This document shows positions 1 through 3,000 of a stretch of DNA of 4,455 nt, piece after piece. The stretch lies in the IMG/VR virus record IMGVR_UViG_2693429642_000021. One strand, given 5' to 3'. The stretch comes from a virus. Lineage: Duplodnaviria > Heunggongvirae > Uroviricota > Caudoviricetes. Positions within the stretch are counted from its first letter, which is position 1. The number at the start of each line of letters is the position of its first letter. The position numbers were made by a program.

Positions 1-3000
1 GGTTCATCAGCGTTTTGGTATTGACAGCATTGATGAACTTTCAATTGAACAAATCCCGCTGGCCGTAGAGTACATCCACAGGGTAGTGCTTGAAGGTGAG
101 TTCATTGGCAAACAAGAGAAGAAAACCAACGAGCTTTCCGCAAAAGAAGCAAACAGCCTTGTATGGCTATGGGATTATGCCAACCGCTCACAGGCATTAT
201 TCCGCGAACTGTATCCGGCGCTAAAGCAAATTCAATCGAACTATTCTGACAGGTGCTACAACTACGGCCATGAGTTCTCGTATGTTATTGGAATGGCGAG
301 AGACGTTTTAATCAATCACACACGAGATGTTGATATTAATGAGCCAGATGGACCAACGAATCTTTCCGCATGGGTAAGGCTTAAGAGCAAAGAGTTGCCG
401 CCTTCACTGCATCACTACTAACAGATTACCAACGAAATGACCCAGCCTCGGCTGGGTTTTTTATCAGGAGTTCTCATGCTCTATAGCAATATATTGGCAC
501 ATGCCCGGCGGTGTGCGCCTGCGGAGTCGTGCGGCTTCGTGGTGAGAACGCCGGAGGGGGAGCGGTATATCCCTTGTGTGAATATTTCCGCAGAGCCGGA
601 GGCGTATTTTCGTATTGCGCCGGAAGACTGGCTGCGGGCAGAGATGCAGGGGGAGATTGTGGCGCTGGTCCACAGTCATCCCGGTGGTCTGCCCTGGCTG
701 AGCGAGGCGGACCGGCGGCTGCAGATAAAGAGTGCCCTGGTGGCTGGTCTGCCGGGGTGACATTCACAAATTCCGCTGTGTGCCGCACCTGACCGGACGG
801 CGCTTTGCGCACGGGGTGACGGACTGTTACACGCTGTTCCGGGATGCTTATCATCTGGCGGGGACTGAAATGCCGGATTTTCATCGCGAGGATGACTGGT
901 GGCGCAACGGCCAGAACCTGTACCTGGACAATATGGAGGAAACGGGCTTTTACCGGGTGCCCCTGTCCTCTGCACAGGCGGGCGATATTCTGCTGTGCTG
1001 CTTTGGTGCTTCGGTACCGAACCATGCCGCCATTTACTGCGGCAACGGTGAGCTGCTTCACCATCTGCCTGAACAACTGAGTAAACGGGAGAGGTATTCC
1101 GAAAAATGGCAACGACGAACGCATTCTGTCTGGCGTCACCGCCACTGGCACGCATCTGCCTTCACGGGGATTTACAACGATTTGGCCGCCGCCTCAGCCT
1201 GTATGTGAACACGGCAGCGGAAGCCATTCGCGCCCTGTCGTTACAGGTGCCCGGATTCCGCCGTCAGATGAACGAAGGCTGGTACCAGATACGTATTGCC
1301 GGTGATGACACGGCACCGGAGGCGGTGTACGCCCGTCTTCACGAACAGCTGGGTGAGGGAACGGTCATCCACATTGTGCCGCGACTGGCCGGAGCCGGAA
1401 AGGGCGGACTGCAGATTGTGCTGGGGGCGGCAGCCATCGTGGGCTCTTTCTTCACGGCCGGTGCCTCGATGGCGTTATGGGGTTCAGCCCTGAGTGCCGG
1501 TGGTTTTTCTGCCACCACGATGCTGTTTTCACTGGGGGCCAGCATGATACTGGGCGGTGTGGCACAGATGCTGGCCCCGAAGGCAAAAACACCGGATTAC
1601 CGCGTAACGGATAACGGCAGACAGAACACGTACTTTTCCTCGCTGGATAGTAACCGGCTCATTTAAACCGTCTGGTCTGTTTCCTCCGGCTCTACAAAAA
1701 TAATGTCCATCATTTTTAATGGACACTATCGTATGAAACACCGGACCTGGATCACTGAAGCTTTACGTCTTCACTTTGAAGAACATTTACCCCGGGTTGT
1801 GGCCGGGCGTCGCCTGGGTGTACCAAAATCAACAGTTTGTAGTATGTTCGTGCGCTTTCGGAGAGCTGGTCTTTCGTGGCCTTTGCCCGCAGGCATGTCG
1901 GAGCAGGAACTTGATGCCTGCCTTTACGGACAATTTTCCACGGTACCAGTCGTACGTCCTGAAAGCACCGTTATATCCGAAGCCCCCGTGGTAAAAAAAC
2001 GTCCCCGGCGGCCCAACTTCCCTTATGAGTTTAAAATCGCCTTAGTGGAGCAGTCACTGCAGCCCGGAGCCTGTGTGGCGCAGATCGCCCGGGAAAACGG
2101 AATCAACGATAACCTGCTCTTCAACTGGCGCCATCAATACCGGAAAGGTGGCCTGCTGCCTTCCGGAAAAAATATGCCGGCACTGCTTCCCGTGACGTTA
2201 ACGCCGGAGCCGGATAATAAAATCCCGGCCCCCGCACAGGAACCAGAGCAGATAAATACACCGTCCGACAGTCTGTGTTGTGAGCTGGTTCTGCCGGCCG
2301 GAACTCTCAGGCTTAAAGGTAAACTGACGCCGGCGTTATTACAGACACTTATCCGCGAAATAAAAGGGAGCAACCACTGATGATATCTCTCCCTGCAGGT
2401 TCGCGTATCTGGCTGGTTGCAGGTATCACCGATATGCGAAATGGCTTTAACGGCCTGGCATCAAAAGTTCAGAACGTCCTGAAGGATGACCCGTTCTCCG
2501 GACACCTGTTCATCTTCCGCGGACGCCGGGGTGACCAGATAAAAGTGTTGTGGGCTGACAGTGACGGACTGTGCCTCTTCACCAAACGCCTGGAGCGGGG
2601 CCGCTTCGTCTGGCCAGTCACCCGTGACGGCAAGGTGCACCTTACTCCGGCTCAGTTATCCATGCTTCTTGAAGGTATCAACTGGAAGCACCCGAAACGA
2701 ACGGAACGCGCTGGAATCCGCATATAACCCGTTGTAAAGTGAGGATATGGACACCTCACTTGCTCATGAGAACGCCCGCCTGCGGGCACTGTTGCAGACG
2801 CAACAGGACACCATCCGCCAGATGGCTGAATACAACCGCCTGCTCTCACAGCGGGTGGCGGCTTATGCTTCCGAAATCAACCGGCTGAAGGCGCTGGTTG
2901 CGAAACTGCAACGTATGCAGTTCGGTAAAAGCTCAGAAAAACTTCGTGCAAAAACCGAACGGCAGATACAGGAAGCACAGGAGCGAATCAGCGCACTTCA

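What the first reader, a model, noticed from the sequence alone, without database searches (positions are those of the whole stretch)
725..740. Tail assembly gene K is split between its JAMM/MPN and NlpC/P60 domains by a frameshift
The JAMM motif region (to about 733, frame 2) and the NlpC/P60-like region (from about 735, frame 0) are both well conserved but out of frame. Frame 0 has a stop at 726-728 and frame 2 stops at 758-760, so the shift is pinned to a few bases around 734, equivalent to a 2-nt deletion or 1-nt insertion. There is no homopolymer or slippery heptamer, so programmed recoding is unlikely. Together with the IS-disrupted I gene this suggests a decaying cryptic prophage, unless it is an assembly error.
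Basis: partly seen in the sequence, partly recalled or inferred. Interest (0 to 1): 0.45.

Follow-up and report, generated by a model that had tools for sequence, protein, structure and literature searches.

The report
Frameshifted prophage tail gene K
A five-base deletion has broken the tail-assembly gene K of a lambda-like prophage remnant in a draft E. coli-type genome, which makes it an ordinary dead gene in a decaying prophage and not a new gene arrangement or a recoding signal.

Summary
Alignment to the closest intact allele (E. coli TOE17, 98.9% identical) shows a single lesion. One unit of a 5-nt tandem repeat has been lost: AAGAG-TGCCC-TGCCC-TGG has become AAGAG-TGCCC-TGG at 733-739. 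This is a typical slipped-strand deletion.

The break is not exactly between the domains. It falls after residue 87, inside the JAB domain, ahead of that domain's last beta-hairpin (residues 90-101). The interdomain linker starts at about residue 102.

The same deletion occurs in 8 contigs from 7 draft assemblies, so an assembly error is unlikely. None of 5,426 complete E. coli genomes carries it. In 1,722 of 1,766 phage records with a K homolog, one place covers at least 80% of the protein. All 79 scorable viral-contig ORFs, out of 80 loci, are fused.

Nothing supports programmed recoding. The downstream fragment has no usable start codon that keeps its catalytic cysteine.

Gene I is cut by an ISCro1-like IS66 element that has no target duplication, and the flank beyond it looks like plasmid DNA.

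Verdict: an ordinary pseudogene in a prophage remnant, of low interest.

The parts
1..421 (+). 3' part of an antirepressor (Ant) gene. It belongs to an Arc/Ant module that sits between tail genes L and K in this group of lambdoid prophages.
   Evidence: Pfam P22_AR_C, E 7e-29. The same L-(clp)-arc-ant-K order is seen in TOE17 and in Stx2a_WGPS6 and in L005.
439..466 (+). Intrinsic-terminator-like hairpin plus T run after ant.
   Evidence: Terminator scan, 8-bp stem followed by TTTTAT.
476..760 (+). K' N-terminal fragment, 94 aa. Residues 1-87 are genuine JAB/MPN sequence carrying E17, H66-S-H68, S76 and D79. They are followed by 7 out-of-frame residues (LVAGLPG) and TGA. An AGGAG sits 5 nt upstream of the ATG.
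   Evidence: Prok-JAB covers profile positions 4-93 of 114 only, so the domain is truncated.
733..739 (+). Deletion scar. The window has a single TGCCC(TG) where the progenitor allele has TGCCCTGCCCTG. The 5 nt are missing.
   Evidence: Alignment with TOE17 and Stx2a_WGPS6. The best E. coli matches are 91/96 identical, meaning they differ only by the gap.
732..1208 (+). K' C-terminal fragment in frame 0. It holds the last beta-hairpin of the JAB domain, the linker and the NlpC/P60 domain (catalytic Cys codon 825-827, His, His). The only in-frame start that keeps the Cys is GTG 732, which has no properly spaced Shine-Dalgarno sequence.
   Evidence: Pfam NLPC_P60, E 5.8e-14. In L005 the gene caller placed the start at the ATG equivalent to 870, downstream of the Cys codon.
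1205..1649 (+). Tail assembly gene I. It has a GTG start that overlaps the K stop, and it is truncated after about 148 codons by the IS. About 46 C-terminal codons are absent from the contig.
   Evidence: Pfam Lambda_tail_I. Homology to TOE17 I ends at 1647-1649.
1650..4348 (+). ISCro1-like IS66-family insertion sequence, 2,699 bp, with tnpA 1703-2380, tnpB 2380-2727 and the transposase 2747-4318.
   Evidence: 99.8% identical to annotated ISCro1 copies. The ends were defined against the EC958 copy, which has the 8-bp duplication TCTGAATA. Pfam IS66 domains are listed.
4349..4455 (+). Flank unrelated to gene I. It resembles plasmid DNA next to a tyrosine recombinase/integrase remnant. It does not repeat the 8-bp target sequence.
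   Evidence: 1,880 of 1,902 matching places are on plasmids, and the match to an O128:H27 plasmid is 99.1%. The left target is GCTGGATA and the right flank is TCTTTTTT.

Best explanation
Gene K (tail tip assembly protein K, a JAB/MPN domain plus an NlpC/P60 domain) of a lambda-like prophage was inactivated by a spontaneous 5-nt deletion. The progenitor allele carried TGCCC-TGCCC-TG, about 2.4 copies of a pentamer. Slipped-strand mispairing during replication removed one unit. Translation from the normal start (ATG 476, with a good AGGAG) now leaves the K frame after residue 87, adds LVAGLPG and stops at 758-760. The product is a 94-aa JAB fragment that keeps its metal-binding motif but lacks the last beta-hairpin of its fold. 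The NlpC/P60 part is left without an efficient start codon. Because gpK is required for lambda tail assembly, this prophage cannot make tails on its own. The mutation is inherited within one lineage of strains. It lies in a prophage that is also damaged in gene I by an IS66-family element. Shown: the lesion, its position in the fold, its recurrence across assemblies, and its absence elsewhere. Inferred: the slippage mechanism, the lack of expression of the C-fragment, and the loss of function.
For: A single 5-nt gap separates the window from the nearest intact allele, with only 5 substitutions across K. The progenitor sequence contains the tandem pentamer. The identical deletion is in 8 contigs of 7 assemblies. 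L003 and L010 are 100% identical to the window from 1 to 1227 and diverge only in gene I, so the deleted segment is shared by descent or recombination. No copy with the deletion was found in 5,426 complete E. coli genomes, where 3,496 places were matched and the best is 91/96. None was found among the GTDB species representatives. The JAB domain extends to about residue 103 by Pfam, by the 2kks alignment and by the AF2 model at pLDDT 89 with strands 90-94 and 97-101. The model matches PfJAMM1 over 107 columns. Fused K is the rule. gpK is required for tail assembly but is not found in the virion (PMC12617516, PMC10721106). Degenerate K variants in integrated prophages have already been noted (PMC1779556). 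Gene I is truncated by the IS.
Against: No read-level data were available. All 7 assemblies look like one deposit batch, so they may share a pipeline and a clonal origin. Loss of function is inferred and was not tested. Each fragment keeps all its catalytic residues. Another lambdoid prophage in the same cell could supply K in trans, since E. coli genomes with a match carry a median of 2 and up to 15 matching places.
Confidence: 0.9

Rival explanations
1. Assembly or sequencing artefact: the true genome has the intact TGCCCTGCCCTG and a single K ORF.
For: The source assemblies are very fragmented drafts, with contig numbers up to about 2,570. K genes are multi-copy in many E. coli genomes, so consensus errors in collapsed repeats are conceivable. 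The right end of this same contig may be chimeric.
Against: The identical 5-nt deletion appears in 8 contigs from 7 assemblies and in two different downstream contexts. A clean loss of one pentamer unit is not a typical short-read error. The rest of the gene is error-free relative to intact relatives.
Confidence: 0.05
2. Programmed recoding: a +1 ribosomal frameshift in the 729-757 overlap, for example at CCG-GGG-TGA-C, restores a full-length K.
For: A frame-2 stop in a UGA-C context follows a GGG codon at 755-761. A +1 slip there would join the NlpC/P60 frame.
Against: Thousands of relatives, including the 98.9%-identical TOE17 allele, are in frame, so the shift is not conserved. There is no Rfam element. 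There is no upstream Shine-Dalgarno-like stimulator of the prfB type. The product would replace the strand PWWLVCRG with VAGLPG and so disrupt the JAB fold.
Confidence: 0.02
3. A functional two-gene K: the JAB fragment and the NlpC/P60 fragment are both made and work separately or reassemble non-covalently.
For: All catalytic residues survive in the two fragments. The missing hairpin of the JAB fold is encoded at the start of the second fragment. Iyer et al. noted prophages with NlpC/P60-only K.
Against: GTG 732 has no spaced ribosome-binding site, and the next ATG (870) lies past the catalytic Cys codon. No phage or viral contig examined has K split. The short 'standalone JAB' database representatives that were followed up are fragments of fused genes. 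Iyer et al. themselves regard the NlpC-only forms as degenerate.
Confidence: 0.03

Closest known systems
Bacteriophage lambda tail tip assembly protein K (gpK / TAPK; annotated 'C40 family peptidase')
   Same: Same two domains in the same order (Prok-JAB, then NlpC/P60). Same neighbours (L upstream, I and J downstream). About 86-97% protein identity to lambdoid K proteins.
   Different: Here the ORF is broken by a 5-nt deletion after residue 87, so no full-length K is encoded. An Arc/Ant module lies between L and K, as in some Stx phages.
Degenerate TAPK variants in integrated prophages (Iyer, Burroughs and Aravind 2006, PMC1779556)
   Same: A K gene in a prophage that no longer encodes both peptidase domains in one product. 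It is interpreted as decay.
   Different: In this case both halves are still present and near-identical to intact genes, so the lesion is recent and can be assigned to a specific 5-nt event.
Frameshift pseudogenes of laboratory and cryptic lambdoid prophages, such as the stf frameshift of laboratory lambda (cited in PMC10721106)
   Same: A small indel inactivates a tail gene while the flanking sequence stays conserved.
   Different: A different gene is affected. Unlike stf, K is required for tail assembly (PMC12617516), so the consequence for the phage is lethal unless K is supplied in trans.
The 199-aa K annotation of the 1982 lambda record (J02459 / NC_001416)
   Same: A K gene whose JAB part appears out of frame with the rest.
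   Different: That shift is a single missing base about 40 codons further upstream. It is absent from resequenced lambda records, which are 1 nt longer there. It therefore belongs to the old record or stock, not to lambda biology, and it is unrelated to the lesion in the window.

Membership tests
Lambda-type tail tip assembly protein K (JAB + NlpC/P60) | N-terminal JAB/MPN domain with the JAMM motif E...HxH...S..D | tested here: met
   Prok-JAB, E 3.3e-15. E17, H66, H68, S76 and D79 are all present in 476-736. The domain is nevertheless truncated at profile position 93 of 114.
Lambda-type tail tip assembly protein K (JAB + NlpC/P60) | C-terminal NlpC/P60 papain-like domain with catalytic Cys and His residues | tested here: met
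   NLPC_P60, E 5.8e-14, covering the full profile 1-105. C119, H185 and H197 equivalents are present. The model matches MepS/Spr.
Lambda-type tail tip assembly protein K (JAB + NlpC/P60) | Both domains encoded in one continuous reading frame | tested here: not met
   There are stops at 726-728 (frame 0) and 758-760 (frame 2), caused by a 5-nt deletion relative to intact alleles. The locus is therefore a pseudogene of this family and not a functional member.
Lambda-type tail tip assembly protein K (JAB + NlpC/P60) | Position in the tail module between L and I/J | tested here: met
   Gene I follows directly with an overlapping start. L005 shows L-clp-arc-arc-ant-K' and L003 shows K'-I-J.
Lambda-type tail tip assembly protein K (JAB + NlpC/P60) | Required for, and active in, tail tip assembly | not testable with these tools
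   This needs complementation of a lambda K mutant. The requirement for gpK is taken from PMC12617516.
Programmed ribosomal frameshift site | Shift site and out-of-frame arrangement conserved among homologs | tested here: not met
   No complete E. coli genome has the deletion. Phage and viral homologs are read in one frame.
Programmed ribosomal frameshift site | Recognisable slippery sequence and/or stimulatory RNA element | tested here: not met
   There is no homopolymer or X XXY YYZ heptamer in 729-757. Rfam at gathering thresholds gave 0 matches.
IS66-family insertion sequence (ISCro1-like) | tnpA, tnpB and DDE transposase (tnpC) genes in this order | tested here: met
   Pfam HTH_Tnp_1, TnpB_IS66 and DDE_Tnp_IS66 on the three ORFs. 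99.8% identical to annotated ISCro1 copies.
IS66-family insertion sequence (ISCro1-like) | 8-bp target-site duplication flanking a simple insertion | tested here: not met
   The EC958 copy has TCTGAATA on both sides. In the window the left side is GCTGGATA and the right side is TCTTTTTT. The two flanks therefore belong to different insertions, through either rearrangement or a chimeric contig.

The most novel reading that the evidence does not exclude
The pentamer repeat site in K could be more than a random lesion. One possibility is that it is a recurrent break point or hot spot in lambdoid K genes. Other database fragments break within a few bases of it: P0152 shifts frame right after LQIK, next to the A-run seen in the Stx2a_WGPS6 allele, and P0153 joins K after QSD to unrelated sequence. 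The other possibility is that the two K' fragments still work together, with the JAB hairpin supplied by the second fragment. That would show that covalent linkage of the two peptidase domains is dispensable.
Probability: 0.03. Interest if true: 0.35.

Novelty: already known. Interest (0 to 1): 0.08.

Why it matters
It matters little beyond annotation. The two ORFs should be annotated as one frameshifted pseudogene of tail assembly gene K, and the prophage should be scored as defective. The case does show that the JAB domain of K runs about 15 residues past the conserved JAMM motif, so domain boundaries read off motif positions alone can mislead. It also flags the 199-aa K of the classic lambda record as an artefact of a missing base. 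The deletion could serve as a lineage marker for the group of strains that carry it.

Tried and rejected
(1) An exact-pattern scan of the GTDB species representatives for the deletion junction found nothing, so the lineage is not a species representative. (2) A look-up of the longer 107-aa ORF starting at ATG 437 found nothing. The start used by gene callers is ATG 476, which has the AGGAG. (3) I looked for natural standalone JAB versions of K. The 50%-identity representatives include many proteins of 100-140 aa. Several of them are visibly fragments or frameshift products. For the one followed up (P0266), relatives were found at 80 viral loci. The reading frame containing the match could be scored in 79 of them, and in all 79 it is 220 aa or longer, meaning fused. 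I therefore rejected the idea of a natural split at this point. (4) The lambda reference seemed at first to be a functional phage with a split K. Resequenced lambda records are 1 nt longer and in frame there, so I rejected it as a counter-example. (5) Rfam found no RNA element. (6) I searched for both IS junctions in complete E. coli genomes and in PLSDB plasmids. Neither junction is represented. I therefore could not decide whether the right-hand flank reflects a real rearrangement or a chimeric contig. The nearest relatives are all E. coli.

Full report
Source and layout. The window is the whole of contig CDQY01000733.1 of draft assembly GCA_000941535.1. Locus L004 is identical to it. Reading left to right, it contains the following features.
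- 1-421: the 3' part of an antirepressor gene (P22_AR_C).
- 439-466: a terminator-like hairpin.
- 476-1208: the two K reading frames.
- 1205-1649: gene I.
- 1650-4348: a 2,699-bp ISCro1-like IS66-family element.
- 4349-4455: 107 nt that match plasmid DNA.

An Arc/Ant module between tail genes L and K is normal for this group of lambdoid prophages. The same order is seen in E. coli TOE17 and in Stx2-converting phage Stx2a_WGPS6, and in the sister contig L005.

Checking the observation. The ORF list confirms a frame-2 ORF ending at TGA 758-760 and a frame-0 ORF from 732 to 1208 that is preceded by TAA 726-728. Pfam assigns Prok-JAB to the first (E 3.3e-15) and NLPC_P60 to the second (E 5.8e-14). 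The closest intact homolog, the 245-aa TOE17 protein, has both domains in one chain. The window is 98.9% identical to TOE17 over 1,652 nt, with a single gap. Within K there are only 5 substitutions. The alignment shows that the gap is 5 nt. The intact allele reads AAGAG TGCCC TGCCC TGGTGG, whereas the window reads AAGAG TGCCC TGGTGG (733-739). Loss of one unit is the classic outcome of slipped-strand mispairing, so a mechanism is available without any homopolymer.

Where the break falls in the protein. The finding's title places it between the two domains, and three tests disagree.
- Pfam: in the intact protein Prok-JAB covers residues 2-103 and NLPC_P60 begins at 109. In the truncated product the JAB match stops at profile position 93 of 114.
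- Solved structure: the JAB protein 2kks aligns to residues 5-105.
- Model: an AlphaFold model of an intact K (P0041, 46-sequence alignment, mean pLDDT 89.4, pTM 0.83) has the JAB elements H2-13, E19-25, E28-34, H49-58, E60-67, H77-86, E90-94 and E97-101. A linker runs from 102 to 118, and the NlpC/P60 domain starts at H119. Foldseek matches the model to Pyrococcus JAMM1 over 107-110 columns, and to MepS/Spr for the second half.

The break after residue 87 therefore removes the last beta-hairpin of the JAB fold from the first fragment and attaches it to the second. All catalytic residues survive in their own fragments: E17, H66, H68, S76 and D79 in the first, and C119, H185 and H197 in the second.

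Is it an artefact? The exact 94-aa product is encoded on 8 contigs from 7 assemblies, and every one carries the same deleted sequence. L003 and L010 are 100% identical to the window from position 1 to 1227, deletion included. From 1228 onward, inside gene I, they diverge sharply by 30 and 21 substitutions. L003 continues into an intact 226-aa I and then J. So the deleted K segment occurs with two different I alleles, one of them cut by the IS. This fits inheritance plus recombination near the K/I boundary better than a local assembly error. The caveat is that all seven assemblies look like one deposit batch, and no reads could be examined.

Is it a natural or programmed arrangement? None of 5,426 complete E. 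coli genomes has the deletion. Across 3,496 matching places the best identity is 94.8%, which is 91 of 96 positions with only the gap differing. A scan of the species representatives found nothing. Among 1,766 phage records with a K homolog, 1,722 have one place that covers at least 80% of the protein. The 50%-identity representative library contains many 100-140-aa hits, and several are visibly fragments or frameshift products. For the one followed up (P0266), relatives were found at 80 viral loci. The reading frame containing the match could be scored in 79 of them, and in all 79 it is 220 aa or longer.

The classic lambda record (J02459/NC_001416) at first looked like a functional phage with a broken K. 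Its first 45 JAB codons lie in another frame and K is annotated as 199 aa. However, resequenced lambda records, DE3 and HK630 are all 1 nt longer at that point, which puts those codons back in the K frame. It is therefore not a counter-example.

Rfam finds no RNA element. The overlap 729-757 has no slippery run. A hypothetical +1 slip at GGG-TGA-C would replace the strand PWWLVCRG with VAGLPG. Iyer et al. (PMC1779556) had already noted K variants lacking the JAB domain in prophages and considered them degenerate.

Consequences (inferred). Translation from ATG 476, which has AGGAG 5 nt upstream, gives a 94-aa JAB fragment with an incomplete fold. The only in-frame start that keeps the catalytic Cys codon (825-827) is GTG 732. 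Its upstream AAAGAG abuts the start codon with no spacing. The next ATG is at 870, the position a gene caller chose in L005, and it lies beyond the Cys. gpK is required for lambda tail assembly although it is not found in virions (PMC12617516, PMC10721106). This prophage therefore should not be able to build tails unless another resident lambdoid prophage supplies K. E. coli genomes with a match carry a median of 2 and up to 15 matching places for this region.

The IS and gene I. Homology to intact I ends at 1647-1649. The IS begins at GTAACCGG (1650) and ends at CGCTTAC (4348). The EC958 copy is flanked by the 8-bp duplication TCTGAATA, but in the window the left target GCTGGATA is not repeated on the right, which reads TCTTTTTT. 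The right flank matches plasmids in 1,880 of 1,902 places. Neither junction exists in complete E. coli genomes or in PLSDB. Five contigs support the I::IS left junction through the 186-aa product. Only this contig reaches the right flank. That side may therefore reflect recombination between two IS copies, or a chimeric join made through a repeated IS.

Verdict. This is an ordinary, recent, lineage-specific frameshift pseudogene of tail assembly gene K in a prophage remnant. It is of a kind already described and of low interest.

Noticed in passing
L093 (lambda NC_001416 13400-15600), about locus 729-900; compare window 476-620: The classic lambda record (J02459/NC_001416) lacks one base, reading GAGGC-TATTTCC where relatives read GAGGCGTATTTTC. 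As a result the first 45 codons of the JAB domain are out of frame and K is annotated as only 199 aa. Resequenced lambda records, DE3, HK629 and HK630 are 1 nt longer at that point, which restores the frame. The short K looks like an artefact of the 1982 record or stock.
   Followed up: yes
window 1642-1649 and 4349-4455: The ISCro1-like element has no 8-bp target duplication, and the DNA beyond its right end matches plasmids (an integrase remnant region), not gene I. This means either recombination between two IS copies or a chimeric contig joined through a repeated IS.
   Followed up: partly
L003 and L010 versus window 1228-1647: Sister contigs are identical to the window up to 1227, including the K deletion. 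They then differ at 21-30 sites within gene I, which suggests a recombination breakpoint close to the K/I junction. L003 carries an intact I and J.
   Followed up: partly
window 1-470; L005 1-2240; L001 1200-4000: A module sits between tail genes L and K in this prophage group. It holds a ClpP-like protease, two Arc-family repressors and a KilA-N/P22AR antirepressor, and it ends in a strong terminator just before K.
   Followed up: partly
proteins P0152 and P0153, equivalent to window about 720-740: Other database K fragments break within a few bases of the same spot. P0152 changes frame right after LQIK, next to the A-run seen in the Stx2a_WGPS6 allele. P0153 joins K after QSD to unrelated sequence. 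Whether this region is unusually fragile was not tested.
   Followed up: no
L001 (E. coli TOE17) 1-9223: The closest intact K allele itself sits in a prophage remnant. Only L, the Arc/Ant module, K, I, sodC, a truncated J and gp38-like genes remain, next to a gene annotated as porin OmpC.
   Followed up: no
window 474-1151 and 676-1155, minus strand: Long antisense ORFs of 225 and 159 aa overlap K. No homology or other evidence for them was sought. They are most likely a by-product of the GC-rich coding sequence.
   Followed up: no
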